Below, piece by piece: positions 27,008 to 61,882 of a stretch of DNA of 64,000 nt. Origin of the DNA: Azolla caroliniana (taxonomy: Eukaryota; Plantae; Polypodiophyta). A program made the position numbers and the translations under genes. Under the pieces are notes generated by a model. It saw only the letters and a program-made list of their open reading frames with translations. It ran no database searches and was not told the origin of the DNA. Location of the stretch: positions 10,664,001 through 10,728,000 of the forward strand of contig JBHGNT010000005.1 of NCBI GenBank assembly GCA_043228905.1, written 5' to 3'. Each line of letters opens with the position of its first letter. Position 1 is the first letter of the stretch.

Positions 27008-27153
27008 AGCCGGATGAAGAGTACCCGGCTACGGAGCCGGATGATGAAGACCCGGCTACGGAGCCGGATGATGAAGACCCGGCTACGGAGCCGGATGACG
27101 AAGACCCGGCTACGGAGCCGGATGATGAAGACCCGGCTACAGAGCCGGATGAT
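27008..27153. repeat. About 5 copies of a 27-bp tandem repeat in the U3 of E (second copy 31853-31998)
   Basis: Unit GAGCCGGATGA(T/C)GAAGACCCGGCTACG. Confidence 0.92.
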
Positions 27154-32632: not shown

Positions 32633-32640
32633 TATAAATA
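32633..32640 (+). promoter_or_regulatory. TATA box of the D LTR
   Basis: TATAAATA about 25 nt upstream of the sequence complementary to the PBS. Confidence 0.7.
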
Positions 32641-32791
32641 GGGATCTACCACCCATCCCAAACCTAAATTGGTTCAACGCCATTTTGTAGCCTACTCTTT
32701 GTAATCCATTTTACGCTTCAATATAATAATTCTCTTTCAATTATCTCTCTATCTCTTTTTCTCTCTCTTTCTCTCTCTCAGTCTTGACAGT

Positions 32792-32803
32792 TTGAACCAA
32801 TTT
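32792..32803 (+). promoter_or_regulatory. Self-priming-type primer binding site of D
   Basis: TTGAACCAATTT is the exact complement of LTR 32666-32677 AAATTGGTTCAA; no TGG tRNA-type PBS. Confidence 0.8.
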
Positions 32804-32877
32804 TTTTCCTTTCATCTCTTCGTCTTCCACAAACCCTAACAAGTTCTCTTCTTCCTTCTCCTCTCCCCTCATAAGCT

Positions 32878-34002
32878 ATGGAGTCCGTGAGCAAACAAGA
32901 ATACATGCGTGTTCTTTCTGAGCTCGACATGCTCACGAATAAATTTGTGGCATTAGAGCATGAGAATCAAAGGCTACTTGGAGATCTACAGCACGTGAGC
33001 GCCGAAAAAGCTCAACAATATGAAGAGTTATCACAGCGGGTTCATCAACTTGAGGCGACTATATTGTCATTACGAGAGCAAGCGTCGGGGGCTCAGAACT
33101 CCCCTAGAGAGCCAAAGATCAGCCTCCCTGCCAAGTTTGATGGTACAAGGTCTTTATTTCGAGGCTTTTTGAATCAAGTTCATTTAGTTATTCAGCTACA
33201 TCCCAATCGGTATCCAACTGATGCTGCTCGTGTGGGATTAGTGGGAACTTTGCTATGCGGTACAGCGTTAGCATGGTTCGCACCACTTCTCGAGAAGAAA
33301 TCACCATTGCTGGAGGATTTCGAGGCCTTTGTTAAAGAGTTTCAAGCTAGTTTCGGAGACACCAACAGCACTAGGACAGCGATAAACAAGATTCGAAGGC
33401 TCCGACAAGGAGATCGTCCCGCGTCGTCTTATGCAGCCGATTTCCGTCTCTTGGCATGCGATATCCCTTGGGATGAGGCAGCTTTAATGGAACAATTCCG
33501 TCAAGGTTTGAGAAATGATGTCAAAGATCTTCTTCTTACTTTCCTTGAAGATCCGAAGTCACTTACAGAAGCCATTAGTCGAGCTGTGCGATGTGATAAT
33601 CGCCTATTTGAGAGACGTTCTGAGTGCCAACAAATGTTACGCCGCCAACCTGAACAGACTTACGCTTCCGTAGTCGCAACGCCTCCACAAGTTTCTAGAC
33701 CCATTACAAGGGATGGCCCAACTCCGATGGAAATAGAGTCAACACAACGTCGTGGGCCGTTATCAGATGCTGAGAAGCAACGATGTCGAGCGCATCACCT
33801 CCGCCTGTATTGTGGTGGTCCAGGACATATAGCTGTAAATTGTCCACATAAACCTAGGCGTCAAGTATACCAAGTAAGTGCCCATGAAAACCCTACATCG
33901 AGTTCTATTGTTACTTCTAATAACATAAATAAGCCTCATAGTCCATGTCATGAGAATAGATTCGATGTCTTGAGTCAATTAGAGGATGTGTTAAACGAGT
34001 AA
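32878..34002 (+). CDS. gag: Gag of chromovirus D (PEG10/RTL1-like capsid)
   Basis: PAKFDG, LRQG and PTPMEIE motifs; knuckle RLYCGGPGHIAVNC with the first Cys mutated. Confidence 0.93.
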   Translation: MESVSKQEYMRVLSELDMLTNKFVALEHENQRLLGDLQHVSAEKAQQYEELSQRVHQLEATILSLREQASGAQNSPREPKISLPAKFDGTRSLFRGFLNQVHLVIQLHPNRYPTDAARVGLVGTLLCGTALAWFAPLLEKKSPLLEDFEAFVKEFQASFGDTNSTRTAINKIRRLRQGDRPASSYAADFRLLACDIPWDEAALMEQFRQGLRNDVKDLLLTFLEDPKSLTEAISRAVRCDNRLFERRSECQQMLRRQPEQTYASVVATPPQVSRPITRDGPTPMEIESTQRRGPLSDAEKQRCRAHHLRLYCGGPGHIAVNCPHKPRRQVYQVSAHENPTSSSIVTSNNINKPHSPCHENRFDVLSQLEDVLNE

Positions 34003-37000: not shown

Positions 37001-37463
37001 GCATCCAGAAGTTCCTACCAACCCTGCTGCCGAGGATCGTCTTAGTCGCCTCCAAGAAATTCAAGCTAACATTCTCCACAATTTGCACGATGCTCAATTT
37101 ACACACAAGAGGCTTGCCGATCGTCATCGTCTAGACTCCTCAAAAAAGTTCCGCATTGGGGATCATGTATGGCTTCTCCAACACAACATCAAGACCACTC
37201 GACCTTGCAGTAAATTGGATTACCAACGTTTTGGCCCTTACATGATCACTGGTAAGATAAGTGATGTTGCATTTCGTCTTGACCTCCCTCCGCACATGCA
37301 TCTTCATCCGGTGTTTCATGTATCCCTTTTGGAACCTTATACTACAAGTTCAATTCCGGGCCGTCTTACGACACCCCCACCACCTGTCGAGTTCTTGGAC
37401 GGGCCTGAATTTGAAGTTGCTGCCGTTCTCGATTCTAAAATCGTGCGCAACAAGTTGTATTAG
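33990..37463 (+). CDS. pol: Pol of D (PR-RT-RH-INT-chromodomain) in the -1 frame; stop inside the chromodomain
   Basis: LLDSGA, YLDD, DASD, HHCC, SLDFI/SDRG/NGQTE motifs, GPY and FEVAAVLD..LY*LVDWLGY..RTWEP. Confidence 0.93.
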   Translation, partial: VKRVSPAKIGAIWLDHPSYVELVPSRGSISSNQVSRVFSAQVELTTSTCHRVLASALLDSGANSCFMDREFALSQNILLNKLPNPVAVGVIDGRPIASGDIVEESEPIRIVLVNLASLISFNIIRSPDHPIVLGLPWFELHNPKIDWMKRTIEETREKSTNPASLSPTCANRSPELSPISLRQLREEGGNEAMFVFAIVATPSSTSRDADIKLPEKYKEFSDVFDKVKANTLPEHRPYDCPIDLQPGKEPPWGPIYNLSPVELETLREYIDENLANGFIRHSRSPAGAPIFFVKKKNGTLRLVVDYRGLNKVTIRNRYALPLIPNLLERLSGAKYFTKLDLRGAYNLVRIRPGDEWKTAFRTRYGHFEYTVMPFGLTNAPAVFQHMANDIFRDFLDIFTIVYLDDILIYSKTQEEHDAHVRQVLCRLREYGLYAKLEKCSFGQNQVEFLGYVVSSNGIAMDPMKVQAILEWQTPLSVRDVQCFLGFANFYRKFIKDYSKVVLPLTQLTHKDQPFIWSSDASEAFESLKRAFTTAPILAHVDPTKRFILEADASDFALGSVLSQTGDDGQLHPVAFHSRKFEAAEINYEIHDKELLAIVDSFQQWRHFLEGSSQQIIVYNDHKNLTYFQNARVLSRRQARWAQFLTHFDFIIIYRPGMQQGKADALSRRSYMELRPGEPAFEHQKQILLGPNRLRLMVVNTITALENSTLLDSIRDHMATDDFVKDVLDHIVPDRASCSQSKNPRNDYCQFYWHDGFLFRQNLLYVPDGPPRLQVLQHCHDSPMAGHFGVHKTLELISRRYWWPRLRHFVEEYVRSCDICCRSKNPRHRPYGLLPPLPIPETPWKSISLDFITDLPVSKGFDAILTVVDRFTKMAHFLPCTKSITSQETADLVMREVFKHHGLPDDIISDRGPQFISKFRKHLFKLLHISVKLSSGYHPETNGQTERTNQTLEQYLRCFINYQQDDWVAFLHLAEFAYNNSAHSSTGYSPFFANTGCHPRWTMNAHPEVPTNPAAEDRLSRLQEIQANILHNLHDAQFTHKRLADRHRLDSSKKFRIGDHVWLLQHNIKTTRPCSKLDYQRFGPYMITGKISDVAFRLDLPPHMHLHPVFHVSLLEPYTTSSIPGRLTTPPPPVEFLDGPEFEVAAVLDSKIVRNKLY

Positions 37464-40400
37464 TTGGTCGATTGGCTAGGCTATACCCCCAATGATCGAA
37501 CTTGGGAACCTGCCACAAATCTTTCCAATGCTGCAGAACTCGTCAATGCATTTCATCGCCAATATCCTTGTAAACCAGGTCCTAATACAAACCCTATGAC
37601 CCGTGAGACGTGTCGTCGAAGAAGGGGGATAGTGTCATGATAACAGTCACATCATGCATCGAAAGGATCATGACACTCACATTATGACTCGAAAGGATTT
37701 GAACCCACGACCTTGTTGTACACATGTCAAATCCTTAACCATTGTATTAATATTCTTATATGTATAGTCTCTAGAATATGAAATCTAATATCATAGGAAT
37801 ATTCTATATTACTCTACATTCTAGAATGACCTAGAATATTCTAGAGTGTTCTATACCACTAGAACCTTCTAGAATACTCTAGAGATCTTCTAGATTACTC
37901 TACATTCTAGGATAACCTAGAATATTCTAGAGAGTTCTCTATTACTTATAAATAGGGATCTACCACCCATCCCAAACCTAAATTGGTTCAACGCCATTTT
38001 GTAGCCTACTCTTTGTAATCCATTTTACGCTTCAATATAATAATTCTCTTTCAATTATCTCTCTATCTCTTTTTCTCTCTCTTTCTCTCTCTCAGTCTTG
38101 ACACCTTCAAGTGAAATCCTATTCGAATATTTCGAGGAGTACTCTATCAGCAGCAAGGTGTACCGAACGCAGGGCGGAGAGAACCTGCTGTTCGGAGAAG
38201 TGGCCCGCGCCATGATGGAATACGGATTCGTGAATCCCCGTCCCCCGGCCATAGCCAAGTACCGGGCAGCGTTCTTAATAGCAGCGTACGAAGGATTACA
38301 AATAGACTGGCTCCATTTCATAACCGAAGGATTGAAGGAGGCCATCAAAAATCTTGTGGAAGGAAAAAAGCCATGGGCCGGGATAGCACAATGGCTAACG
38401 GTGTTAGTCCCACCGGTGCTCCCCATCCCACAAAAGAAAAGAGGTCGGCAGGAGACGACGCCGAAAAAGGTCACAAAGCGCCGACAGATCTTGGAGAAAC
38501 ACACCCCCGGATGGACCCAGCAAGAAGCAGAATAGCAGGGGGAAGGACCATCCCGACAGCAACAGGAACCGGCAACAAAGGCAAAACCGGCAGGTAAAGG
38601 CAAAGGGAAATCAGCCGAGGAGGAACCGGTAGCGCGCAAACCAATCCATATAACGCTGCGACGGCCGGAACCGGAACCAGAGGACTTTATACAAAAGGCC
38701 CGTCTGGTAACCGCACCGGAGGAGGAAGCTGAAACAGAAGACTCATCCGAACCACTGGTAAGACTCCCAGCAAGACAAGGTCGGGAGAAACGGGCGAAAG
38801 GACCGGCTCCACCAGTGGACAAAACTCAGTAGAGGGCGCAAGGACCACCTCCGGAAACAGCACCGGAACCCGTACCGAGGGAAGCAGCACCGACACCGGT
38901 TGTGCCGGACTTCAGAGAACCGGTCATCCCAGAGAAGAAGAATGAACAAGCGCCGGAGCCAGAGAAAAGGCCGGAAAAACAGCCTGAGTTAAGTGAGCAA
39001 GGCCACCCCGACACAGGAAGAACGAAGCCACAATGGTTGAGATGGCTTTCGGAGCAGTTATCGGGAGTAGCGGACCAGTTAGAGAAAGAAGAAACGTGTA
39101 GGCAACAGCTGACGCATACAACAACGCAGGAGTTGGTCGCGCTCCGAACACAAATCGAGGAAATGCAAGGGGAGCTGTTGCAGGCAAGGGAAGGAATTCA
39201 ACAAGCACAAGTTGTCACCGAGCCGGTCGGGACAACAAGGAGGCAACCAGAACCGGTAGCCTTGCAAACCGGCCCTGAGACCGAAAAAATAATAGAAACC
39301 TTGCGAGAGGAGTTAAAAGCTCAGGAGGCATTAAGGGAAAGAGAAAGGGAGCAGCAGAAAGCGGTGGAGGACGACAGACGAAAAATGGAAGAAGGCCTCC
39401 GGAAAGGTCGAGCCGCTAATGACCGACTGCAAGAAGAAAAAGAGAAGCTGCAAAAGGAGAAGGACCGACTACGTCGACATGCCGAGCAAGAGATAGAACG
39501 ACTGCAGGAAGAACTCCGACAACAGAAGGACCGGGACGATCGGTTAAGAGCTCAGGCAAACCGACGCCTGAAGCAGAAGACGGAGGACTTCGACCGTCTC
39601 TACCGAGATCACAAGCAGGCCGAGTCGGACAACAAGAAACGGGCAGCAGACTACGACCGGCAAATAGAGAAGCTGAAAGAACAGCTCAAAGAGACCCGAT
39701 TAGACTTGGCTAAGGCAATGGATGAGGTCAGTGCCAACAAGGAAGCATTGTCGGCGGAAATAGCCCAAGCGACGGTGAGAAGGAAGGAATTAGAGGCGCT
39801 AAGGCGGGAAAAGCTGGACCTGACCAAGATCAGGAATGAAGAAAAGGAAAAATCGACCTTCACGATCAGCAAACTGCAAAGTACCTATGAAAAGCAGAAA
39901 GCGGATTACGAGGCCCAGGCTCAGATAATGGCCGACATTATAAAACGGGCAAGGAAGGAAAAGCAGGAAGCTTATGCGCATGCTAAGGCAGGGGTTGACC
40001 GGATCAAGCTCATCATGTCAGGATGGAGTACCCGAGCTCAGGCAAGCATCAATGAAAGTACGGAAAAGCTATGGAAGGAGTGGTCACAACAGGCAGCCGA
40101 GCTGCAGACACTCCGAGCGGATGCCGAGAATCGGAGGAAGACTGGTGACAAGTTCTACAAGATGGATGAGGAAAGTATCGTCGCCATTCGGGAAGAATTG
40201 TCGGAAGATTTCTACACTTTAGCGGAAGAACATCTCAAAGAAATCCGAGGGTTGGTAGAGAGGTTGGATGACGGGCAGCTCGCAACTCAGTTGGAGTTGG
40301 AGAGATACGAGCAGGACCGGTTACGATAGGAAGCTAAGGGAAGAACGACGCCAACCACTATTGGTGAGGGAACGCGACCGGCTGAAGTTGAACCAACCGA

Positions 40401-41759
40401 CACCGAACAACCCCGATGAGGAATACCCGAAGACGAACTTGAAGAAGAGCAGGAGCAGACCGATGCCGGAGAAGAAGAAGAGCTGAGACCGGAAGACACC
40501 AGAGCAGAGGTAGAAGGCATATCGAGCCGACCAGTCGAGACCGGAGAAAGCGACACTGGTAACAGAACAGAGCCAGGAACGGAGGGAGAACAGGAAGAAC
40601 CCGGATGAAGCGGTGAGGAAGCACCGGCACCACAGAATCAAGCAGAGCCGGAGCAGCAAATTTTTACGGAACAGCCCACCCAACCGGAGGTCGGAGACCA
40701 GGCAGGCAAGGAACAGGAACAGGAGGAAGAAGCACCACTTGACACCATCGAGCAGAGTGTGCTCGATATTTTGGAGGAAGAATGAGGCCGGGAGTGGATT
40801 CGAAGTGCACGGCACTTTCCCACGGGCGTGCCATGTGTTGGCCGGTCAGAAGAGCAAGGACAAGTGGGAAGGCAGAGTCGGATTGGATAATAGGAAATAA
40901 ATAATAGTAGAATTATTATTCGGAGGGATGGATCCGGTACAGTTGTACCGATCCGGATCTGGACCGATTCGGATGTCGGTTGCCTAAGCGCACCGATTGT
41001 AACCTTGCCGGATGCCTATAAAAGGATCCGATGATTTGTAAAGGGTTTTGACAGAAGTAATACAATAGTAATTATTGCGTGTTTATCTGTATCTCGTATT
41101 GTTTACCGTCTGTGCTTAATTGTAATCATCTTACGCGTGTAACCTAGCATCCAATCCTTACCACCCCTTTGGAGAAGTGTCGGATAGACACCTGTGCTTT
41201 TTCTGACTCTGATTGGGCTGGTTGTTATGCCACTAGTGTGTCCACAAGTGGTTTTTGCTTCATGCTTGGTTGCTCATGCATATCTTGGTTGAGCAAGAAG
41301 TAGCCTACTGTGGCCACTTCTAGTTGCGAGGTTGAGTATAGGGCAGTTTTCATAGCTATAGTTGAGTGTGTGTGGCTCAGACACCTTTTAGATGATTTGG
41401 GTTTTGGTCAGTCTTCTGCCACCACCATCTTCACTGACAATCAAATCGCAATGGCAGTTGCGAGGAACCCTGTCTTACATGCTCGCACTCGGCACATTGA
41501 GGTGCATTATCACTATGTCAGGGAAAGGTTCTCCGCTAGAGAGATCAATTTGTCTTATTTGCCCATGCAAGAGAACATTGCAGACCTCTTCACAAAGGCT
41601 CTGCCTATGGAGAAGTTTGAAGCTGTCCGCAAAGCTTTAGGCCTAATCCCATTTGTAGATTGATCTCTATCCACATAGCTTGACACTTGTTTAACCATGA
41701 GTGTCAGCTCCTTGTTCACCGCATCACTCCCAAGGGGTATTTGCTGACATATTTTGGTA

Positions 41760-48100: not shown

Positions 48101-50556
48101 GTACCATGATGCCGACTCATCAAACTCGACATCTCAACGTACTCGTATCTGTTTAGTCCGGGGATTATAACACTTATACCCCTTCTGCTCATGCGAGTAA
48201 CCGACTAGGATGCACTTCTCCGACTTCGGATCTAGCTTCCTCCGCATCTCATCCGGTACATGCACATATGTTATGCTACCGAATATCCGAAGGTGCCTCA
48301 AATTACGCGAAACACAGCTCATGTGCTGACACCTTGTCTCCGATTCAGTTTTGGATGTAGACAGCCGTTCGGACTTCCTCGGCCCAGTAGAATTGGGGCA
48401 TGCTCTTCTCCTCCAGCATTGCCCTTGCCTCGTCGACAATCGACCAATTCTTCCTTTCGGCCACACCGTTTTGTTCCGGTGTTTATCGACAATTGAATTC
48501 TCTCCGAATTCCATTCTGCTACAGATAACTGTTGAATTGGCCGGAAAAGTATTCTTTTCCGCCATCTGACCGCAAGCACTTGATCTTCCTCTTCGTTTCC
48601 CATTCAACTAAGCTTTGCAAGTTCCAGAAACATTCGAAGGCTTCGCTCTTTCATTCGATGAGGTACATCCACGTGTTTCGGCTGTAGTCGTCGATGAAGG
48701 AGACGAAATATCGACTCCCACCAAGACTAACGTTCAATGCCAATCCCCATACATCCGAATGGATTAGGTCGATCTTGTTACACCTCCGGTTTCGTTCAGT
48801 GGGGAATGGAACCAAGTGTTGCTTCCCGAGTTGGCAGGCTTCACAAATTTCAACCCTCTAGCCGCTAAATTTCGGCAAACCGAAAACGACTTGCTTTGAT
48901 TGCAGGTCTTGAAGCCTCCTATAATTGATGTGGCCGATCCGCTTGTACCATAGGTCGATGTCCGACTCGACCTTCTGCCCTTTCGCAAACATGGCGGTGC
49001 CGACGTCATTAGAGTTGACGATAAACATCGTCCCTTCTCTGCGCCCTTGCGCAATTATCCGGTCTTCTTCCTCGATGAAGCACCGGAGGTGTGTAAACCG
49101 CACCTGCATTCCCTGGTCGACGATTTGTCTCACCGATACCAGGTTCTTTGTGATAGTCGGAACGTGTAGTACGTTCATCAGCTTCCCCTTTGGCCTGACA
49201 TGGCTTAAAGGGACTTCTCCGACATGCACAATCGGGTGAGGGGTATCGTCTTCGGTTTCGACAATCCCCGATTGTTCCGGTTTTTCACAAAAAGAGAACC
49301 ACATTTCATGGCTCGTCATGTGGTTGGAAGCTCCGGAATCAACATACCATACTTCCTCCAATTTGGAAGTACTCTTCTTCATCGAGTTAGCCTTGTGCTT
49401 CATCACGAAGGTTGGCCCTTTACTGGTCTTCCCAGTTCCGGATCCTTCTGGTCCTTCCGTGTAGTGCGAGCTTTGCCAGTTTTCCCGACCGACTTTGCCA
49501 GATCCGTATTTGTCCGAATCGGCGCGCTTCTTCCAGCACTCACTTTCCCTGCGGCCTTTCTTTCCACAGTACCAGCATTCCGTGTCGGCCTTTTCTTTCT
49601 GGTTCCCCGCGTCGCTTTGACTCCCCCTGCTTATGGAGGGTCCAGAACTACTGTCAGCACTGTCTCTTTGCCTTTTGTCCTGCTCTTGCCGACCAACCTC
49701 GTCCTCCACTCCCAGGGGGCCGATCCACCTCCATGTACAGCATCCGACTGTCCGATTGGGTGGTCCTCGACCCACTCGCGTGGTTTTCTTCGACCATCAG
49801 CTTCTCCCAGGTGCAAATCGTTGTCTAGATTAGCCCGTACCTTTGCGCTAGACCACCGAGGAAGATTTGTACCATCTCGTCTTCATCCACCGTCACGTTG
49901 ATGCACCCGAGTGTGTCACAAATCTCCTTTATTTTGGTGGTGTAATCTGTAACCGACATGTCTCTTTGTCGGACATGTTTCAGCTCTTGCCAGAGCTGCA
50001 ACTTACGGGTTGGGTACTCACGGTGAAAATCTTCCTCGGATTTCCCTAGGCCTCCTTTGGCGTTTTTGCATGCTTTATGTAACCTGTTATTCTCTTAACC
50101 GGACAAGGCCTAACACAAGGTGTCACGGAGACACTTCACCAAAGGGTGATTACGGCATAGGATTAAGATTCAACGATTACACCGACTTACATAGGTTACA
50201 CAATTAGAATGCTTCGGTTAATTACACGCGTAAGATATAACAGTAATTACAGAACGGAAACCAAGACAGAAGTATAAACAACATAAGCTCTATTAATTAT
50301 CCGCTCTCATTACAATGGGGTCCGGGCCTTTAAATAGGTTTCCGGCCCGTAGTACAAAACGGTGCTTCTCGCACCTATTCGGGATCCGTCCGGATCTGGA
50401 ACGGCATACCGTTTCCAGTCCGTCCGTCCACACTATGCTCATTTACAACCATATCTAATTAATTCCTTCACTCCGTATTTTGGACTCCTTGCCGGCCGGT
50501 AACACATGGCACGCCCGTGGGACAGTACCTTGTACGTCGAACCCTTCTCGGCCCCT

Positions 50557-52542
50557 TCATTGTTCACCCAAATTGTCCAAAATACTTGGTTCAAGAATTT
50601 CCACTTGTTCTTCCGGTTGTGGTTGTTGCGGCTGTGCTTCCTGCTGCTGCTGTGGTTGAGGTTGGGCCTGAGGCTGCTCCGGCTGCTCTGCTTGCTGCTG
50701 CTGCTCCATTTGTTTCGCTGACTCCGGCTGCTCCGTTTGTCTCTCTGGCTCCGGCATCTCTGTTTGACTGCTTCCGGTCCGGTCTCCTTCCAGTAACGGT
50801 TCCTCATCACTGAGGTTGACCGTAACTGGTTCTCGTTCTTTCTCTCCCCGGATCCGGCGTAGATTCTCAGCAGTCTTCTTGAGTTCTGCCTCCGCTGCCG
50901 TCTTCAGTTCTCTTTCGCGGCTCCTCAGCGCTTCTTGGGCAGCAAGCTCATCCTTTAAATCCGCAAGCTCTTGGGCTTGTGCCGCATTTCTCTCCGGAAC
51001 GGTTCCCGTTGCCGGGGTCTGATTGCTATGTACAGGTTGATCTGACACTTTATTCTGTACATTGCCCGGAGTCACCGGTGCTTGGACTTGTGTTTCCCTT
51101 GTGACCCTGTCCAAGTCTTGTTCAAGGCTCCGGATTCTGGACCGGGCCGTCTCTAGATCTACGGTTGTGACGAGCAACCGTTCCTGGTGCGCTCTCTCTT
51201 CCGCCTCTATATACTCGACCACTCCGGCGATTTGCTCGCCTACCCACCGTAGCCACATGCTACTGGTGCCCTGTTGCTGTACTGGTCGGGTCGGCTCATT
51301 CACTGTGGAATTGTCTGGCCTGATTGCCTGCATATGCCGTTCTGGTTCTACTCCTTGGCCGCCGTGTGCTCTGGCTGGGCTCGCCGGCTGTTGAGTTCCG
51401 GTTCTCGCCGTCTCCGGAGCCGTTGGACTGACTTCTTCCATAGAAGTCGACAAGACCGGTTCCCTACGCACCGGTTCCGGTTCTTCCCTTGTGGTTTGCT
51501 CAGGTTGAGTTGGGGGCGTTTCTGCCTCTCGCGGGTACGACCGCTCCCCTCCTGTCTTGGCGGTCCTACTTCTTGACCGTCGTTGGAGGTGCTCTTCTGG
51601 CTCCTCCGTTTCCTCTTCCTGTGTCACGGCATGTTTCTGTGCCGTCGAGGGTTCCGGTTCCTTCTGTCCCGGTCTCCGTAAGGTTATCTTGACGGGTCGG
51701 ACCGGTGACACCTCCTCCGGTTCTGGGACCCGTTTCTTCCCTTTCGTCGCCTTCGACGCCAGCAACTGCTGTCGTTTGGACGCCGGCTTCGAGGTGCTTC
51801 CTTCCGATACTCTTGGCCGCTTCTTTGGCTGGACGGTCTCGACCGGCGGCACGAGCAATGTTATCCATTGAGCTACGGCGTGCCACAGCTTCCGGCCCTC
51901 CTTGCCGTCCTTCCCTCGTACCATGTCGATTGCCATGCACAATCCGTCTGCAATCAACACCGGCCAGTCCACCTTGATCCCTTCATAGGTGGCTATGATC
52001 ATCCCTGCCCGATTTTTTGGCATGACAGGGGGTCGGGGGTACACGTGACCGTACTCATGGAGCACTCGAGCTATCTCCCTGAATAGCGGATCTTCGCCGC
52101 CCTGCGTCCGATAGCCTTTGCCGGCAACAGAGTACTCACCGAAATATCGGATGAGTTGCTCCGAGGTTGGGTTATCGATCTGAAAGATTCCTCCCTCCGG
52201 AAGGCCTGTTAGCGCGCGGATCGCTTCCTCAGTGATGACCTCTGTGGCGAGCTCCTTGATGACCCGGTCGGCTTCTCTGTGCGGCGGTGCCTCCATGATG
52301 GCCAAGAACCCCTCCAGTCCGTTTTGCCTGAACCATTTCCTGGCCGCTTCCGACAGCGTTTGTGGTTCCATGTCTGCTTCAAGGTCGAGGGAAGATGGCG
52401 AGGTAGAGTGGTGATGAGAGTGAGAGCGAGAGAGAGAGCGTTCTGAGCACGGGGGTTCTCTGCGTGCAGGTTCGCGTTTGCTCAGCTTCCACTGTCTTGG
52501 TGCTTCTGTGCTTCTTGGCTCGCGAAATGAAAAGGTCTCCAT
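50557..52542 (-). CDS. ORF3 of G2b, unknown function (globular N-terminus, low-complexity linker, coiled coil)
   Basis: Open frame of about 660 aa between pol and the 3' LTR; homologous to ORF3 of G2a; true start uncertain. Confidence 0.8.
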   Translation of the reverse strand: METFSFREPRSTEAPRQWKLSKREPARREPPCSERSLSRSHSHHHSTSPSSLDLEADMEPQTLSEAARKWFRQNGLEGFLAIMEAPPHREADRVIKELATEVITEEAIRALTGLPEGGIFQIDNPTSEQLIRYFGEYSVAGKGYRTQGGEDPLFREIARVLHEYGHVYPRPPVMPKNRAGMIIATYEGIKVDWPVLIADGLCMAIDMVRGKDGKEGRKLWHAVAQWITLLVPPVETVQPKKRPRVSEGSTSKPASKRQQLLASKATKGKKRVPEPEEVSPVRPVKITLRRPGQKEPEPSTAQKHAVTQEEETEEPEEHLQRRSRSRTAKTGGERSYPREAETPPTQPEQTTREEPEPVRREPVLSTSMEEVSPTAPETARTGTQQPASPARAHGGQGVEPERHMQAIRPDNSTVNEPTRPVQQQGTSSMWLRWVGEQIAGVVEYIEAEERAHQERLLVTTVDLETARSRIRSLEQDLDRVTRETQVQAPVTPGNVQNKVSDQPVHSNQTPATGTVPERNAAQAQELADLKDELAAQEALRSRERELKTAAEAELKKTAENLRRIRGEKEREPVTVNLSDEEPLLEGDRTGSSQTEMPEPERQTEQPESAKQMEQQQQAEQPEQPQAQPQPQQQQEAQPQQPQPEEQVEILEPSILDNLGEQ

Positions 52543-52696
52543 GCGTTCTGCTTCTTCTTTGTGCGTTTTGGCGCCTTTTTCGAGCATGCACACGTCGTGT
52601 ACCAATTTAGTATTAAGTAGCGTGGCGTCTCTTAAATGCCCACTACGTACCTTTTCGCGCCTTGCTTTCACACCCGTTCATACCTCGATTTTTAAT

Positions 52697-52697
<1 letters not shown>

Positions 52698-52739
<42 letters not shown>
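52698..52739 (-). repeat. A42 tract on the element sense strand between pol and ORF3
   Basis: Run of 42 T on the + strand. Confidence 0.9.
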
Positions 52740-52746
<7 letters not shown>

Positions 52747-52757
52747 GGTGTGTGACC

Positions 52758-55700
52758 TTACACATCCGTAGGTCCCTTCGGACCCTGACCGTTTTCCTGA
52801 CGGGTTGCCGTGTCTTCCTTCGCCTCTGCTACGGGTTCCCCGTCGTCTTTTTCTTCCGGATCGATCCGTACCGATCCCGGACAGGTTCCTGGTGTAGTGC
52901 CGGTGAGCTGCATAAACGGGTTCTTTGGCATCGGTCCTTTATAAGGCTTTAGTCGAAATCCATTCACCCACTTGCCTAGTACTTCCCCGGCAAGTGTCCC
53001 TATCTGATAGGACCCGTTGTATTCCCGTGTCAGCCAATACGGGCCTGTCCATCTGAACCGGAGTTTACCCGGCATTTTGCCCATCCTCGTTTGGAATACT
53101 AGAACCGGCTTTCCGATTTCGAACATCTTTTCGTTACCTTTCCGGTGACGGTCAACGAACGCTTTCCGTCTTCGTTGCTCCAGTTCCATGTGGAGGATGC
53201 TGGCCAGCCGTTGCTCCTCCAGTTCGCATAGTGCTGCTAGCCGTATTTCCTCCGACTTCTTTTCATTCAGCCGTTCCCGTAGTTGGATCCGTAAGCTTGG
53301 TACCTGAAACTCGACCGGCATGACCGCTTCTAAGCCGAATGCTAACCGGAACGGCGTTGTCCGGATACTCGTTTTGTATGCCGTTCTGTACGCCCATAGC
53401 GCACTATGGAGCTTTGTGTCCCAGTCCGTCCGGTTTTCATTGACAATTTTGCGGAGAATGTTCTGCAGCGTTTTGTTGGTGGACTCTGCTAACCCGTTCG
53501 CCTGTGGGTAATACGGTGTGCTTCTTTTATGGACCACGGCATAGAACGTTGTTAAGCTTTCCACTACCTGGCCGAGGAAGTGGCCTCCTTGGTCGCTGAT
53601 TAATTCAATCGGACATCCATATCGGCACCAAATGTTTTCGTACAGGAATTTTGCTGTGGATGACGCGGTGTTGTCTCTCAGGGCCTTAGCTTCCACCCAT
53701 TTAGTGCAATAATCTGTTGCCACGATGACATAACGATTACCCGTTCTCATTGCCGGTCGCTTGAACGGTCCGACAAAATCCAACCCCCACTTCTGGAATG
53801 GCTCTAGTGGCAGTACCGGTTGGTGTGGCATCCGTGCTTGTTCCGTAGGCTGGCCCATTCGTTGGCATAGGTCACATTCCTTAGCATACTTCACGGCATC
53901 TTTTAGCGTCGTGGGCCACCATAAGCCGCTCTGGCATACCTTTCTTGCCGTCGCTTCCCCGGCATAGTGTCCTCCGGCAACCCCACAGTGTGCTTCCCGT
54001 AAGATTACTTCTTTCTCGTCACTACGGACTGCCCGTCTCCATATTCCATCTGCTCCCTTGTGGTAGAGAGTGTCCCGTAATAGACAGAAATTGCGGCTCT
54101 GCACCGCCAGTCGTTTCCTCTCGTCCCGGTTCATTTCCTCCGGTGGCAAGCCCGTGCTTAGGAACTGGTGCATGTTTGTCAGCCATTTATCTTCTGATGC
54201 CACCGTGTCGTCCGCTGCCGTTTCCGGGGTGATACGGAATAACTCCGCGTCCGGGAATTCATCCGCTACTCCGTCGCCTGGTTCTCCGGACTCTAACCGG
54301 CTCAGGTAGTCTGCTACGGCATGCTGGATACCGGGCCGGTGGAAAATCTCGAATTCGAACTCCTGCAACAGCAAGGTCCAACGGGCCAACTTACCGGTTA
54401 GGGACGCCTTGGACACTAAGTACAGAAGCGCCGAGTGATCCACATGAAAGGAGAACTTCCTTCCCAATAGGTAGTGCCGAAACTTTGTGACACTGTAGAT
54501 CATGCCGAGGGCCTCCCGTTCCGTCGTTGAGTAGTTCTTCTCCGCTTGGGATAGTTTCCGGCTTGCGTAATATACCGGCCGGTACCATTTAGGCTCCGTA
54601 AGTTGCATTAAGGCGCTGCCAATAGCGATGTCGGACGCGTCCACGAACACGTGAAATTCCTTGCTCCAATCCGGAGGCTGCACGACAGGTGCTTGCGACA
54701 AAAGTACCTTCAGGGCATTGTATGCCTTATCCTCCGTCTCCGTCCATTGGAACGGTGTCCGATGTACCGCGGTGTGTAATGGTGTCGCCAAGTCCGCCAA
54801 GTGACGGAGCATCCGGCTGTGCCACCGGATTTGTCCTAAGAATCGGCTTAGTGCTTTGGCCGTTTTCGGCGCCGGTGCCCCTAGTATGGCGTTTACTTTG
54901 TCCGGGTCGACCGCAATGCCCTCCTTACTTACGATGTGTCCCAGCAATATTCCACTTGAAACCCCAAAGATGCATTTTGCTGGGTTTAAGCTTAGCCGGT
55001 ATAACCTACACTTTTCAAGGCATAACCGTAGGTGCTGCAAATGGTCTTTTCCCCGGCTATAAACTGCAAAATCATCCAGGAAAACTTGCATGAAGGCAGG
55101 AATGTATTCGCCGAAGATCTCCATGATGATTCGTTGGAACGTTGCTGGTGCCGTTTTTAGGCCGAACATCATGACTTCGGCCACAAACACCCCCCATTCG
55201 GTGACGAACGCTGTCTTTTCCTGGTCGTCCGGGTGCATCCGGATTTGATTGTACCCGCTGAACCCGTCTAAAAGCTATAAACTTCATGACCGGCGACGGC
55301 ATCCAGTACTCCGTCCGTGAACGGAAGAGGGAATGCATCCGTAATTGTGGCGGCATTTAGTTTCCTGTAATCAACACACACACGGATTTTACCGTTCTTC
55401 TTGGGGACGACGACGATGGGGCTCAGCCACGTCGCTTTCTTTACCGGCCGGATGAAGCCCACTCTTAGGAGTTTGTCGATTTCCTCTTTTACTTTGGCGG
55501 CGTAGTTGGGGTTCATTCGGTATCGTCGTTGCGCCACTGGTTTCGCGTCCTTGCCTAAGTGGATCTGATGCTGATATAATTGAGGGTCCAGCCCTCGCAT
55601 GTCTTCGTATGACCAGGCGAATACGTCGCGAAACTCTGTGAGAAGTTTGATCATCGCCGCTTTATCTTCCGGCTTCATTTCTTTGGCGATGTGTACCGGC

Positions 55701-58153
55701 TTTGATTCGTCTTTGCTTCCTAGGTTCACTTCGTCGAGCTGGGATGCTTTTACCCGTTGGGAAACGGCCATTTCTCGTTCCAATGCTTCCTGTGCTTGCC
55801 GTAATTCCCGAATCGCATCTTTATCTGGTTCGGCTTCGGTGTCGTCCCGCTGCGGCAAGTATGGTGCTACGGCTTCAGCTACGTCAATCTCGAAGAGTGG
55901 TACGATCTTCGGGTGTTCCTCCAAGTACTGGGCTTCTTCGTCGTCTGCCAATCCTTCAAGCATGTTCACACATTCCGCATACAGCGGTGTGCATTCCTTA
56001 CCATTGCTTGTCCGTGGTTGTGTCGGAACCCGGACCTTGGCTTTTCCGCGCCGGAAGGTAATCATATTTTTTCGCCAATTTTGCTTGATGTGTGCTGTTT
56101 TCAACCATGGTCTGCCCAGCAGCAGTGGGTACGCGCCTTGCGCCTGTAGCTGCAGCACTACAGCCGAGATGTGAAATGTGTGGCCTCCTATGGTGACTTC
56201 CAATTTCCGTATTAAGCTCGTCGGCCGTACAGAGCTCGTATCCGCCATCCGTAGCCAGAACGGACATGGCTCCCATTCATGTATACCCAAGGCATCACAC
56301 GTGCCAAGGCTTATTACGTTCACTCCGGAACCTCCATCGATTACTGTGCCGGGAAGTTCGTGCCCTTTGACAATAGCTGTGATCACCGGACTACTAGTGT
56401 CCACCACCGTCGGTCCCTCCTCCGGATTCGAGAAAAGAACTGGTGCCGGTGGAGCTATACCGTCTGTCATGACTGTTTTTAGTCCTTCTGTGAATCGCGG
56501 CACGAGCTACAAGAGTCTTCCTAGTGGTAACGTGATCTGACATTCTTGTAGTGCTTGCCATGTCTCGTTTTCCGGGTGGCTACCGCCCGCACTCCCTATG
56601 ATCTTCGCCTTTTGCCGTTCCGCGTCCGCGACGTTTCTTTCATTGGCTTCCTTTACCCATTCCGTCGCCTGTTTTCGTATGGCCTCTTGTGTTTCCCATT
56701 CTTTGGCCATGCCTTTCGACCGTGTGGTTACTTGCTGTAAATCCGCCACTTCCGGAACCACCATATTAACTGCTGGTCGTTTCTCGTAGCTCTTTACCGG
56801 GCACTGGTTACTGTAGTGGCCTTCTTGCCTACAGTAGTAGCAGTACTCTTTACGGGTATTGCTGGATTCAGCATTGCTGGTAGCCGGAGCCGGTCCCGTA
56901 GCGAGTGGTGCGTTCTGTGCCGGTTGGCTCCTTGGGGTTCCATGTTCCGGGTCCCTAGGGTGACCACCTTTCTTGAAATTACGTTTCTTATTATTCTTAT
57001 GTTTATTTCGGTAGTCCGGTCGTGGTGGATCGTAAAATCGGCCGTAGTCCTCCTGGTGCCTTCGGTAACCAGGGGAATGGTCTCTGTCGTATTGCTCGTG
57101 TCGCCTGTTGGGCTCTCGATAACGGTCCGATCGCTCATACCGATCGTAGTTATCACGCCGATTCCCGTACCGGCCATCATTCTGTTGCCTGTCTCCGTAC
57201 CGGATATCCTGTGCCGGTCGGTACCGGTTCATTTTTTGCCAACGATCTTCACCTTCGTCTTGGCTGCTTCTTGGCTCGATCCGTCGGACGGGTGGTGCTT
57301 GTCGGTTTAACAGGTTATACTCGCACCGATCCGTTGTATGACTCTTGGATTGACAAATCACACACTGAGTGCGCATGGTGCACTCTACTGCCGAGTGTCC
57401 GGCATTCAAGCAGATTGTGCATTGAATTGCCTGCCGGAAGCAGAGATCTTCCTCGGTGGGTAACGCCCGTTGCAGTGTTCCCAGCGTAAGCCATGAGCTT
57501 GTCTTTTCCATTTCTCTGACCCGGTCAATGACCTGATCGATGGTGCATCCTCGAAAGTCGATCACCGTACACACCGTGCGTAACGGTTCCCGGAGTGCGT
57601 TTAAAAATATCGTCCGTAATTCCTCCTCCGGGGGTGCACGGGCAAGCTGGCTATGCATTCGTTGGAAACGGATGACGAATTGGGGAATGCTTTCCCCTGC
57701 CTCCTGCCGGATCGTATAAAACAGACCCACCATTGTCGTCTGGTCGACCTCCTTGTGGAAAAAATGCAAGAACTTTGCTTTTAATTCTGCAAATGTTGTG
57801 ATGGTCGCCGAGTCCTGCGACCGCCGCCATCGTGTCGCTGGTCCCTCCAACGTGACTCCGAATTCCGCTATCTTCGAGCGTTCTTCTTCGTCCGGTGTCA
57901 TTCGCTGGGACGTGTGATTTGCTTCCCATGTCTGCTCGAAGTCATCCACATGCGCTTCCGCGTCCGGATCATCGCGGTACTTTGAGTATTGGAACGGCAT
58001 GTCGTCGTCCAGTATTAAGCCGCGGTTTAGTGGCGTTTGTTGATATTTTTCCGGTACTTTCTCCGGTTCCACTTCCGGTTCTTTTGCCGGTCCTTTTTCA
58101 AGATTGCTTAAAGTGTGCGGCACTTCATCGAGGGTTGTTTGGGGTGGACTCAA
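52758..58153 (-). pseudogene. gag-pol: gag-pol of G2b (N-truncated gag, PR, RT, RH, INT) with one stop (56507) and one frameshift (~55268)
   Basis: Zinc knuckles; VIDGGSG; MMFGL and FLDD; VDASD; GLDF/SDQG/NGLAE; GPY. Confidence 0.93.
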
Positions 58154-59013
58154 GTTTAGATCTTATTTGTATGTCTAAACATAAGTAGTGATATAGTTTT
58201 AGAAGAATAGAAGAGTGAGGGCGTGGGTGGGGGTTAGGGGAGTGTAGCTTGTTGAAATTATCAAAAGTATTTAAACCTAATCAAAGTTTTTAGAATATAT
58301 TAAAGATCATTGGGATAACTTAAGTTATTAGACAACAATAACGTACTATTAAAACACCAATATAGAGTATTATTAAAACGGGACCACACGCTTGGATGAA
58401 CGAGAGTTGTTTAAACACACGCTTAAGCAAACACTTAAAAGAAAGATTATTATAAAAAATAAGAATAAAAATAAAAATAGAAAAGAGAGATTGAGATTAA
58501 AAAATGATTATGGTTAAGAAGGGATTATGATTAAGGGGGAAGGGGTTGCTAAACAAAGTACTTAAACGAATGTTTAAACAAATATTTAGATAAGAAAACA
58601 CTTGGGCAGACACTTAACGCAAGGTTAGGATTAAAAGAGAAGGGAGGGATTATGGTTAAAGAAAAGGGGTCATGGTTGAGAAGAGAATGATTATGATTAA
58701 GAGAGGAGAATACTTAAACAAATGTTTAAACAAAAAGTTAAACCTAAAAATGATTGAACAAGTACTTAAAAAAAAGGGGTTAAACAAGTAGTAATAAAAA
58801 TGTTTATTAAACAAGTACTTAATAGAAAATGATTAAATAAATGCTTAAAAACTTAAGACAAAAAAAAAAAAAAAAAAAAAAAAAAAAGATAAAAAAGTGA
58901 TTAAACAAGTACTTAATAAAAGTTTATTAAATAAGTACTTAAGAACTTAAGACAAAAAATTAGATAAGAGCAACACATAGAAGGAAAGAAAGTTTTACTA
59001 TCATAAGGCAACG

Positions 59014-59059
59014 ATCGGCAAATGCATTTCGCCTCGATGGAGGCTCTTCAGTGCCCGAT
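59014..59059 (-). ncRNA. Minimal type-I hammerhead ribozyme
   Basis: Minus strand reads AUCGGGCA-CUGAAGA-GCCUC(CAUC)GAGGC-GAAA-UGCA-UU^UGCCGAU: full core, stems I and II, palindromic stem III. Confidence 0.85.
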
Positions 59060-59221
59060 GTACAAATGATGAAAACTAAGCCTACTAGGTTGCTCTTTTT
59101 ATAGGGAGAGGGAGGAGAGTCCTTTGTATGTGGGACATACAAAAGTGTGTACAAAGGGAAGGTAAAAGAGTGTACACAAGACTTTAGGTGGGGGTTAAGA
59201 GGGGTGAGAGTACATAAAACA

Positions 59222-60960
59222 TTAGGTGGAGGGAAAGGATGCGTGTACTAGGTGGTTTCTTAGTTTTTTACCATTTAGCCAACACGTGAGAGGGGGTGTA
59301 AGGGAACTGTATTGTGGTTGTCCTAGAAGGGGTTTAAGTTTGTTTCTCACGAGCGCTCCGATTTGGAGTTTTTTGATACAAGGGGAGTATCGAAGCTTAA
59401 AAACAATGGGTGGAGGTTTTTTGTTGTTGGGTTGGTTAGAGAGTAGTTGGTTTCGTATGGAGTAGGGGACGGTCGAAAAACACTTGAGTAGGAACTTCGA
59501 TGGGTAGCCCCTAGCTCTTAGGCGGTCGTAGAACTTTTTGCGTAGTTCCATGTAGCCATTTTCCGAGCTCTCCCGAATAGCATACCGTTTTAGTTCGCCC
59601 GTGATGAAGCCCTTTTTGTGTGCTATGGGGTGCGAGGATTTCCACGGGAGGTACATGTAGGCATTGAGAGGTTTTTGGTGGCATGTGGTGTCGAGGATGC
59701 CGAATTCTTTAAAGTATGGGCCTTTGAAGAATACGACGTCCAGGATGGTGATCTCTTTAGGGGAGGTTGTTGATTCAATACGGATGTGTTGTTGTAGAGG
59801 CACGCCGTATTGGTGTAAGAAGGTGTGAAGTGTATCGGGGGAACCTTCCCAAACTCCTATGGCATCATCGATGTAGCGTTTGTAGTAGAGTAGTTGCGGT
59901 GTTTGGAAAGCTAGGTTGTCGTCCTCTAGCTGCGAAAGAAACAAGCAAGCGTAAACAACCGCAAAATTACTACCCATCGCGGTGCCTTTAATTTGTAACC
60001 AAAAAGCATTATTAAAGGAGAGAAAATTGTTTCTAAGTATTAGTTCGGCAACACTCATAATGATTTTGGTTTTGTGTGGTGGGAAATGATGTGAAATAGA
60101 TTTTTTAAAAAACAATAGACCTTCCGTGGTAGGTATACTGGGATATAGTGACACTACGTCAAAAGAAAACAACGTGCAAGTTTTGGGGAAGGTGTGGTGT
60201 GCTAGGTCCTTAACAAGTGTTAAGGAGTCTTTGAGGTGTTGTTTTTTAGACAATAAGACAGGATGTAGTAGATGGTGTAGCCATTTAGAGGCTCTTTCGA
60301 AAACATAATTGTTGTAGGCGCAAATAGGGCGTCCTACAACAATGGGCTTGTGGACTATGGGGATGATGTAGAAACGACATATCCTGAAACCATGTTTGGG
60401 TTTTTGAAGGAGGAATCTAATTTCCTCATTGGAGAGGTGGGGGGAAGCTTTCAGACATAGGTGTTCAAGTCGACTGTGGAGAGTTTCTAGGGGGGCGTCT
60501 TTGACGGGGGTGTAGGTGTTTTTGTCGTTGAGCTGTCTAAGGCATTCGTTAAGGTACCAATCCTTAGAGAGAATGCACGTGCCTAGATTTTTATCCGCGG
60601 GTTTAATAACTATGTCTTGATTTTTTTTGAGATTGCGTAGTGCAGTTCTAAAGTTCCTATGAGGGCGAGGTTGGATGGTGGGTGGGGAGGGGAGGGCAGA
60701 GGTGATAGATGTGATGGTTTGTGTGATTTCTGGCACGGCTGGGGGATTCCAACTGGGGTTCGGTATTCTAAATGGAGAGATAATGTTAGTAGAGTTTCTA
60801 AAGAAATATTTGAGGCGGTAAGTTCTATCCAAGGATACAACGGCATCTATCAATTGTTGTTTTCTAATAGGTTGGGGTGGGGGAATAAAGTCTAGACCTA
60901 AGCTTAGAAGTTTGAGTTGGGGTGGAGGAAGGTGGAAAGAGGAAAGGTTGTGCAATGAGT
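59222..60960 (-). CDS. Penelope-like reverse transcriptase, about 580 aa, open but lacking its own ATG
   Basis: NLS..LLSLGLDFIP; KPADKNLG; FYIIP.VHK..GRPI; SFDVVSLYPSIP; QIKGTAMGS; RYIDD; QKPLN.YMYLPW.SSHP; RGYP. No GIY-YIG domain. Confidence 0.92.
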
Positions 60961-61882
60961 TTAACCGGACAAGGCCTAACACAAGGTGTCACGGAGACAC
61001 TTCACCAAAGGGTGATTACGGCATAGGATTAAGATTCAACGATTACACCGACTTACATAGGTTACACAATTAGAATGCTTCGGTTAATTACACGCGTAAG
61101 ATATAACAGTAATTACAGAACGGAAACCAAGACAGAAGTATAAACAACATAAGCTCTATTAATTATCCGCTCTCATTACAATGGGGTCCGGGCCTTTAAA
61201 TAGGTTTCCGGCCCGTAGTACAAAACGGTGCTTCTCGCACCTATTCGGGATCCGTCCGGATCTGGAACGGCATACCGTTTCCAGTCCGTCCGTCCACACT
61301 ATGCTCATTTACAACCATATCTAATTAATTCCTTCACTCCGTATTTTGGACTCCTTGCCGGCCGGTAACATAACCGAGCATCTAGTCGTGCACACAAGAT
61401 GTGAGGCAGTACAATACTCGATTTCCTCCTTGCTCCCATACTGGGAAGTCTTCGTGTGCCGGCTCCGGCGCTACCTCGTTTGTTCCTTCCATGAAGCTCC
61501 AATATCCATGCCCCAACAGGTACTGGTGCATCTTGTATCACCAGGACGCGTCCTTGCTCCGATCGAGCTTCTCTGTTGGAAGTGAACTCGCCATTCCTCT
61601 ATCCATATCTTCTCTCTGTCTGTTGTTACCGGGTTCTAGGGTTCGTCTACGAAAGCAAGTGTCGACTGCAGAGGTTCTCAACCCTCGCACTCTAATACCA
61701 TGTGAATGTTAACTTGCGGAAGCATTAGACAGAACCGGCTCAGCCGAAGAGCAACAGAGAATAAGATGAAGGTTTAATGGAGAAGTTTAATACATAGACA
61801 GTATACGCGGGAGAGATAGGGAGAGCAAAACGTAAACGTAGATTCAAAATATCACTTTGAAAATTCTATGTACATAAAACGT

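What the first reader, a model, noticed from the sequence alone, without database searches (positions are those of the whole stretch)
58154..60960. Endonuclease-less Penelope-like element with an intact RT, inserted interstitially into a very young LTR retrotransposon
Seen: a stop-free ~580-aa PLE RT that ends after the thumb, with no GIY-YIG ORF on either side within the insert. It replaces the last 10 bp of the G2b 5' LTR, the PBS and the gag N-terminus, and the host LTRs look identical. Known: PLEs are patchy in land plants, EN-less clades (Athena, Coprina) are usually telomeric, and Naiad/Chlamys elements carry an N-terminal endonuclease. Inference: this is a recently active PLE family, and this copy may have been captured at a double-strand break because there is a target deletion rather than a TSD.
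Basis: partly seen in the sequence, partly recalled or inferred. Interest (0 to 1): 0.85.

Follow-up and report, generated by a model that had tools for sequence, protein, structure and literature searches.

The report
Nuclease-less Penelope copy patched into retrotransposon
This is a shortened, likely dead copy of a plant jumping gene that has a telomerase-like copying enzyme but no recognisable DNA-cutting enzyme, and it sits inside another jumping gene where its enzyme likely began copying on a broken DNA end, suggesting that a kind of element known from chromosome tips also spreads into chromosome interiors.

Summary
The element is real, but its left boundary is 58093, not 58154, and its RT is not intact. 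The 2.87-kb insert is the 3' half of a multi-copy, ~5.15-kb, tandem-forming Penelope-like element of the Selaginella Sm1-like (Coprina) endonuclease-less group. Full-length relatives have no GIY-YIG. They carry a ~650-aa ORF1 overlapping the RT in the -1 frame with a slippery site (26 of 26 loci with an overlap), and a covarying hammerhead. This copy lacks ORF1, the frameshift site and a start codon, and has Ile at an invariant Lys. Its 3' junction shares 7 bp with host gag and lies 22 nt behind a conserved motif, in the register where sister copies end or meet telomere repeats. The 5' junction is blunt, 10 bp inside the host 5' LTR, and about 0.6 kb of host is lost. The host LTRs are 410/410 identical with a 5-bp TSD. 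Best reading: the element's own RT primed on a chromosomal break (0.6). Rival: it was joined to the host's unfinished cDNA and inserted by the host integrase (0.25). No laid contig was seen bridging either junction. Verdict: new variant of a known kind, interest 0.45.

The parts
50080..50084 (.). 5-bp target-site duplication of the host Ty3 element (left copy)
   Evidence: TAACC, same as 61371-61375
50085..50504 (-). Host 3' LTR, 420 bp, complete, TG...CA
52758..56506 (-). Host pol (protease, RT, RNase H, integrase) in two frames; frame break near 55269
56507..58099 (-). Host gag remnant; N-terminal ~165-175 codons lost; in-frame stop at 56507-56509
   Evidence: Pfam Retrotrans_gag and zf-CCHC; P0195/P0196 and the related element at 22785-26448 as proxies
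58093..58099 (.). 7-bp microhomology (CTTTTTC) shared by host gag and the PLE 3' end; likely priming site
   Evidence: host loose ends at 58099 in 4 of 4 runs, PLE loose end before 58093 in X3; the host 12-mer repeat also ends at 58099
58093..60960 (-). PLE insert, 2868 bp: 3' half of a ~5.15-kb unit, same sense as the host
   Evidence: 97.9% to L001 2399-5171; 78% to L002 12-337 over 58457-58094
58115..58124 (-). Conserved GTGC-N-GCAC motif, 22 nt before the 3' junction; candidate signal that sets where copying starts
   Evidence: sense hits in 7 of 36 loci vs shuffled mean 1.3 (max 4); near-palindromic, so 5 of 36 also hit on the other strand
58100..59221 (-). AT-rich 3' non-coding region (pLTR part) with short degenerate repeats
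59014..59059 (-). Type I hammerhead motif with palindromic stem III (predicted to act as a dimer)
   Evidence: only hit in the 64-kb window; 0 of 500 shuffles; 99.2% of cells paired, 6 of 11 pairs with two-sided changes
59222..60958 (-). PLE RT frame, 578 codons: DKN at 122, motifs A/B/C (YIDD at 362), thumb; no IFD, no nuclease, no start codon
60356..60358 (-). Codon 201, Ile in place of the Lys of the PKxHK motif
   Evidence: Lys in 26 of 26 covering rows of A1 and in 74 of 74 motif matches among P0001-P0120 (46 did not match the pattern)
60960..60961 (.). Blunt 5' junction of the PLE with the host 5' LTR, 10 bp inside its U5 end
   Evidence: PLE continues otherwise in 4 of 4 runs; intact hosts continue to the PBS
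60961..61370 (-). Host 5' LTR, 410 bp, identical to the 3' LTR, last 10 bp missing
61371..61375 (.). 5-bp target-site duplication (right copy)

Best explanation
The insert is a 5'-truncated, likely dead copy of a two-ORF, endonuclease-less Penelope-like element of the Selaginella Sm1-like (Coprina) group, likely written into a chromosomal break inside an already integrated Ty3 element by the family's own telomerase-like RT. Steps: (1) Full-length units sit head to tail (shown in assemblies); the RT would be made as an ORF1-RT fusion of about 1250 aa by -1 frameshifting (inferred from conserved signals). (2) The RNP would present an A-rich stretch about 16-22 nt behind a conserved GTGC/GCAC motif; in a sister subfamily this stretch runs into CCCTAAACC, the complement of the telomere overhang (sequence shown, role inferred). 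(3) A broken, resected host end finishing in CTTTTTC-3' would pair with that stretch and prime cDNA (7-bp microhomology shown, priming inferred). (4) Synthesis would stop after 2.87 kb and the end would be joined bluntly to the other side of the break, losing about 0.6 kb of host (junction shown, deletion size by proxy, end-joining inferred). The result lacks ORF1, the frameshift site and a start codon, and the host has lost its PBS, so neither part is likely to move again.
For: Clade: identical GTAMGSNFAVVYAC and same A-to-B spacing (58 vs 59 residues) as the 'Selagine1' row of Craig 2021 Fig. S1; grouped with Selaginella P0013 and Cryptomeria proteins, apart from GIY-YIG-bearing rows, SH-aLRT 97-99 in quick trees. 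No nuclease: 0 of 120 listed near homologs carry PF01541; profile hits in L068, L070, L071 and 13 proteins but none in L001-L036 or the window. Frameshift: RT in -1 frame in 26 of 26 loci with an overlapping ORF1 (31 examined), A_AAA_AAC in 25 of 26, hairpin 7-9 nt behind it. Register: the window junction, the ends of L004 and L005, and the telomere join of L029 all fall within about 16-45 nt behind the same motif of a ~5-kb unit. Sister copies have non-family flanks unrelated to LTR boundaries: L003, L004, L005, L024; L004 has TTAGGGTTTAGGGTTT at its 5' junction. Target loss with microhomology and no TSD matches endonuclease-independent L1 insertions (PMC1920257, passages and section 12).
Against: The 5' junction lies only 10 bp from the LTR/PBS boundary and the insert is in the host's sense; a random break explains neither, the rival explains both. 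No contig bridging either junction was seen in the rows shown for the 6 runs laid (tables were cut). The motif is near-palindromic, found in only 7 of 36 loci (two family groups). Sister junctions come from metagenome assemblies without empty sites, and the 26 loci represent far fewer independent families. The copy differs from L001 at 34 sites in 2.77 kb although the host LTRs are identical, so the template was already diverged or the LTRs were homogenised later. No tree with named Athena, Coprina or Chlamys references was built.
Confidence: 0.6

Rival explanations
1. The chimera formed before integration: the host's unfinished minus-strand cDNA, paused in gag, was extended on PLE RNA (by the PLE RT, or by the host RT switching template), then jumped to the plus-strand strong-stop DNA near U5, and the host integrase inserted the whole unit.
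For: Same sense as the host; the microhomology sits at the end where minus-strand synthesis would switch; the second junction is 10 bp from the PBS boundary where the second strand transfer happens; LTRs identical and outer ends intact with a TSD. Order of steps from PMC12789967 (passages).
Against: No homology at the second junction. Sister insertions L003, L004 and L024 have 5' junctions unrelated to any LTR/PBS boundary. Nearness to U5 was noticed after the fact. Two searches for precedent gave one general review and nothing.
Confidence: 0.25
2. A longer PLE copy inserted in gag and a later, separate deletion removed its 5' half together with the gag start, PBS and 10 bp of LTR.
For: One deletion would explain the 5' truncation and the target loss; the host has other lesions (stop, frame break).
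Against: Needs two events within the short time implied by 410/410 LTR identity; 5' truncation is the norm for PLEs (PMC8557442) and is seen in L003 and L004; the junction is blunt.
Confidence: 0.08
3. A break was patched by DNA-templated copying from an ectopic genomic PLE copy (filler DNA), with no RT involved.
For: Gives microhomology plus target loss too; the insert spans an uncleaved hammerhead site.
Against: Would not place the 3' junction in the same register as sister ends and a telomere join.
Confidence: 0.04
4. The composite is a mis-assembly joining two repeats.
For: No bridging contig seen in the displayed rows.
Against: Junction homology is 7 bp and 0 bp, too short to mislead an assembler; TSD and LTR ends are intact; the 3' junction is at a biologically meaningful place; the laid runs are probably other individuals.
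Confidence: 0.03

Closest known systems
Coprina-group EN-minus PLEs of Selaginella moellendorffii (Sm1/Sm2; 'Selagine1' in PMC8557442 Fig. S1) and conifer EN(-)PLEs (PMC9033089)
   Same: RT clade and motif B string, no IFD, no nuclease, canonical type I hammerhead (PMC4209133, passages), telomere-complement stretches and a telomere join in sister loci.
   Different: This copy and several sisters are interstitial; Coprina is described as typically one ORF (PMC13159263), here two ORFs with a conserved -1 frameshift signal; at the priming register this subfamily has only an A-run where its sister has CCCTAAACC.
Coprina-1_Alen of Ascochyta lentis (PMC13159263, section 17)
   Same: Two ORFs, coil-rich ORF1, DKN motif, RT plus thumb, direct terminal repeats.
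   Different: All 13 fungal copies are at chromosome ends; no frameshift signal is reported in the section read.
Athena (rotifer EN-minus PLEs)
   Same: ORF1 with coiled coil that can be separated from the RT by a frameshift (PMC8557442 Fig. 1 legend); hammerhead; C-rich priming stretch.
   Different: Different RT clade by the Fig. S1 rows; the structure behind the slippery site here is predicted as a long hairpin, not shown to be a pseudoknot.
Chlamys / Naiad / PLE-X (PMC8557442)
   Same: PLE-X is also EN-minus, has a hammerhead, occurs in spike mosses and inserts away from telomeres.
   Different: These have an IFD and CxC motif (and mostly an N-terminal GIY-YIG); none is present here.
Endonuclease-independent (non-classical) L1 insertion (PMC1920257)
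   Same: No TSD, target deletion, junction microhomology, 5' truncation: it works like this.
   Different: An L1 using a side route, versus an element with no nuclease and a fixed internal priming register.

Membership tests
Penelope-like elements | Telomerase-related RT with DKG-type motif, core motifs and thumb | tested here: met
   13 best VIA-align rows are TERTs; DKN, YIDD; homolog annotations
Penelope-like elements | pLTR / partial tandem organisation and 5' truncation | tested here: met
   L002 head equals tail; L003, L004 tandem; X2 and X3 contigs run from the 3' end into the next unit
Coprina group (EN-minus) | No GIY-YIG endonuclease in full-length units | tested here: met
   Pfam on 16 + 10 proteins; regex and profile with positive controls
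Coprina group (EN-minus) | RT groups with the Selaginella Sm1/Sm2 lineage | tested here: met
   By-eye match to the Selagine1 row and trees with Selaginella P0013; that P0013 is Sm1/Sm2-like is inferred from the match
Coprina group (EN-minus) | Placement in a tree with named fungal Coprina, Athena and Chlamys references | not tested
   Reference sequences were not among the fetched proteins
Coprina group (EN-minus) | Hammerhead motif in the terminal repeat | tested here: met
   15 of 36 loci on the sense strand, 1 of 36 antisense; covariation
Coprina group (EN-minus) | Reverse-complement telomere stretches and attachment to telomeres | tested here: inconclusive
   Met in sister families (L029 ends in a CCCTAAA array; C-rich runs in L007, L008, L011-L015, L020-L025, L027-L030) and as one CCCTAAACCCTAA in L001; absent from the window copy; no genome to map this family's copies
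Coprina group (EN-minus) | Single ORF (as 'typically' stated in PMC13159263) | tested here: not met
   Two overlapping ORFs in 26 of 31 loci; the same paper places a two-ORF element in Coprina, so the feature is not strict
Chlamys / Naiad / PLE-X | Insertion in fingers domain between RT3 and RT4 | tested here: not met
   Spacing 58 residues, as Selagine1 (59)
Chlamys / Naiad / PLE-X | CxC motif upstream of the GxKF motif | tested here: not met
   No CxC in the upstream RT frame of L001, L002, L004
Chlamys / Naiad | N-terminal GIY-YIG | tested here: not met
   the profile came from C-terminal nucleases and could miss a very divergent one
Dryad / Penelope-Poseidon / Neptune | C-terminal GIY-YIG after the thumb | tested here: not met
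   Frame stops after the thumb region in window and L001-L004; EN+ rows branch apart
Athena | ORF1-RT frameshift | tested here: met
   Sequence signals only; not assayed
Athena | Athena RT clade | tested here: inconclusive
   Motif rows of AthM/AthR differ by eye; no tree with Athena

The most novel reading that the evidence does not exclude
An endonuclease-less PLE can borrow an LTR retrotransposon's integrase: its RT (or the host RT) extends the host's unfinished cDNA on PLE RNA at the PLE's own priming register, and the chimera is integrated as one unit. More widely, this plant Coprina subfamily has traded telomere pairing for T-rich free ends, using a conserved RNA motif as a telomerase-like template guide.
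Probability: 0.25. Interest if true: 0.75.

Novelty: new variant of a known kind. Interest (0 to 1): 0.45.

Why it matters
EN-minus PLEs are the closest mobile relatives of telomerase and are described as largely confined to chromosome ends; how they prime is open and no in vitro system exists (PMC8557442, section 15). This family gives testable handles: a fixed priming register behind a short conserved motif, subfamilies with and without the telomere complement at that register, interstitial junctions with microhomology, and a conserved -1 frameshift signal that predicts the real RT protein. If the pre-integration route is true, a nuclease-less element would have a way to use another element's integrase. 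The single copy in the window is a dead fragment; the value lies in the family.

Tried and rejected
No whole genome is held, so copies could not be counted or mapped to telomeres. Pfam has no hit for the window RT; sequence searches of solved structures gave nothing clear. Rfam missed the hammerhead, and single-strand folding of it was not significant, z -0.67, as expected for a dimer-type motif. No RNA holder was laid; expression untested (no RNA holder listed). Viral contigs gave no RT relative and one unrelated hit for the host PBS pattern, so no intact host copy was obtained and the deletion size rests on proxies. The Atlas gave only weak helical-bundle leads for ORF1 (best 0.89) and did not run for the RT. 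A pseudoknot behind the slippery site was considered; the alignment favours a long hairpin with limited covariation, 4 of 11 pairs, in a coding region. The idea that many copies share the gag junction (site-specific targeting of gag) was rejected once 58093-58154 proved to be element sequence. Private substitutions are not deamination-dominated (7 of 34 C>T or G>A) and pN/pS is 0.30 (9 and 9 changes): inconclusive on age. The careful tree did not finish; only quick trees are reported. Gladyshev and Arkhipova 2007, Arkhipova 2017 and Lin 2016 were not held, so they may already describe two ORFs, a frameshift or interstitial copies in plant elements.

Full report
Observation. The host is a Ty3-type LTR element on the minus strand: 3' LTR 50085-50504, 5' LTR 60961-61370, 410 of 410 bases identical, the 5' LTR lacking its last 10 bp, with a TAACC duplication outside both ends. 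Pfam finds gag, RT, RNase H and integrase domains. It is nested in a Copia element whose LTRs are 91% alike. Between gag and the 5' LTR lies an open frame of 578 codons in the host's sense. Its model (mean pLDDT 90.9) matches telomerase RTs best: the top 13 rows are TERTs, Z 15.9-18.2, spanning model residues 3-513. The last 65 residues are barely tested by those rows.

Boundaries. I laid 6 different public runs, all as contigs (X1, X2, X4, X7; X3, X4, X7, X8). Host contigs leave the window at 58099 in 4 of 4 runs. Element contigs match from 58093 and then continue into the start of L001 (X3; an X2 contig also runs on for 671 unlike letters). At the other end the element continues past 60960 in 4 of 4 runs, and intact hosts continue from the LTR into a PBS (X3); the join has no shared or added bases relative to the sister LTR. 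No intact host of the same family was obtained. The related element at 22785-26448 and gag relatives P0195/P0196 put the loss at about 0.57-0.6 kb. No contig bridging either junction appears in the rows shown; both tables were cut, and the runs are probably other individuals, so this is no evidence either way.

The family. The protein search gave 1220 hits, 120 listed; the best is 98% identical, in a cluster of 15 mostly on contigs of 4.6-6.1 kb, and P0132 extends 147 aa further. A metagenome scan kept 75 loci. L001 is 97.9% identical to the insert and L002 is a head-equals-tail unit of about 5.15 kb; L003 and L004 (79%) are tandem too. Full units have an ORF1 of about 650 aa that overlaps the RT frame. 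I examined 31 of the 75 loci (those among the first 36 with the RT N-terminus and enough upstream DNA). 26 have an overlapping ORF of at least 200 aa; the RT is in the -1 frame in 26 of 26; 25 of 26 have A_AAA_AAC in the ORF1 frame, the other G_GGA_AAC. In several families the overlap is only 16-19 nt and still holds the site. A hairpin follows after 7-9 nt. These loci stand for far fewer independent families. I infer -1 frameshifting to a fusion of about 485 + 769 aa. A search for Penelope + Athena + frameshift + pseudoknot + telomer returned only PMC8557442, whose Fig. 1 legend gives this feature for animal PLEs; three key papers were not held.

No nuclease. None of 120 listed near homologs carries PF01541; 4 of 54 longer ones do, all 26-27% identical. 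A profile from those four finds the domain in L068, L070, L071 and 13 proteins but not in L001-L036 or the window (best domain E 2.4). Pfam found none in 16 and 10 proteins. There is no IFD and no CxC, the marks of Chlamys, Naiad and PLE-X (PMC8557442, text parts 1-5 of 10, section 15, supplement search and part 54).

Clade. The motif B string and A-to-B spacing match the 'Selagine1' row of Fig. S1 by eye. Quick trees place the window with Selaginella P0013 and Cryptomeria proteins (30 of 58 rows, SH-aLRT 99; 12 of 26 rows, 97, with GIY-YIG-bearing and frog rows apart). Sm1 and Sm2 are listed as Coprina (PMC13159263, passages and section 17); EN-minus PLEs are tabulated for Selaginella, pine and spruce (PMC9033089, passages); telomere association in Selaginella is restated in PMC12477314 and PMC4209133 (passages). 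That the host plant is a fern comes only from an earlier unchecked note.

RNA signals. One type I hammerhead lies at 59014-59059, the only hit in the window, with 0 of 500 shuffled inserts hitting; 15 of 36 loci have one on the sense strand and 1 on the antisense. Over 11 sequences 99.2% of cells pair, 6 of 11 pairs change on both sides, and stem III stays palindromic; slid controls pair 28-42%. The shuffle control was passed for three of five measures only. A second motif, GTGC-N-GCAC at 58115-58124, occurs in 7 of 36 loci against 1.3 in shuffles, but also in 5 of 36 on the other strand because it is near-palindromic. The window's 3' junction is 22 nt behind it at an A-run. In the L003/L004 unit the same A-run runs into CCCTAAACC; the terminal copy of L004 and L005 stop matching family sequence there; L029 joins a CCCTAAA array 29-45 nt behind the motif where L007 and L008 continue into ORF1. 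I take this as the family's priming register (inference).

State of this copy. It lacks ORF1, the slippery site and any ATG before codon 301. It differs from L001 by 9 silent and 9 replacement changes in the RT (pN/pS 0.30, against 0.11-0.16 between subfamilies); codon 201 is Ile where 26 of 26 covering relatives have Lys. That this Lys is a nucleotide-binding residue is recalled, not tested. The host has lost its PBS and has a stop and a frame break. Identical LTRs therefore date the last copying or homogenisation, not necessarily an active element.

Mechanism. Target loss, no TSD and microhomology are the marks of endonuclease-independent insertion at breaks (PMC1920257, passages and section 12). 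Sister copies L003, L004, L005 and L024 have non-family flanks; L024's 5' junction lies in mid Copia RT and L004's carries 2.5 telomere repeats, so break capture looks common in the group. I give it 0.6. The 5' junction 10 bp from the PBS boundary, the shared sense and the side on which the microhomology lies fit a chimera made during the host's reverse transcription (step order from PMC12789967, passages); I give that 0.25. Two searches for precedent gave one review and nothing. Later deletion, DNA filler and mis-assembly share the rest.

Verdict. Real, partly mis-drawn, and a member of a known group. The two-ORF frameshift design, the fixed priming register and interstitial insertion make it a new variant of a known kind. 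Interest 0.45.

Noticed in passing
window 50505-50545 (-): The host has no polypurine tract before its 3' LTR; it has a stretch resembling a tRNA 3' end with a small hairpin, ending in CCA two bases before the LTR. Earlier notes on this genome describe the same feature in other copies.
   Followed up: no
window 50557-52677 (-) and 52697-52740: The host carries an extra 706-codon frame with no Pfam hit downstream of pol, separated from it by a long poly(A) tract of over 40 bases.
   Followed up: no
L004 1437-1455: An interstitial sister copy has TTAGGGTTTAGGGTTT, G-strand sense, at its 5' junction, as if telomerase had acted on the other end of the break before joining; the flank looks like a host gene.
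   Followed up: partly
L024 445-897: A sister-family copy is fused in frame to a Copia RT fragment at its 5' end, with an unrelated transposase-like flank at its 3' end.
   Followed up: partly
P0008 cluster: Cryptomeria japonica has many near-identical 626-aa relatives annotated as genes, mostly on 15-52 kb records, suggesting young arrays.
   Followed up: no
P0047, P0048, P0209-P0213: Closterium relatives are annotated as single ~1000-1100 aa ORF1-RT proteins; either in-frame fusions or gene models bridging a frameshift.
   Followed up: no
L001 889-1752 (-), L002 1215-2081 (-): A 288-codon antisense open frame lies opposite the helical core of ORF1 in both loci; no Pfam hit above cut-off for L001's, probably a codon-bias shadow.
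   Followed up: partly
window 22780-41196: A related Ty3 element (LTRs 98.3%) holds further nested elements with 99.5% and 100% identical repeats, so the region has several recent insertions.
   Followed up: no
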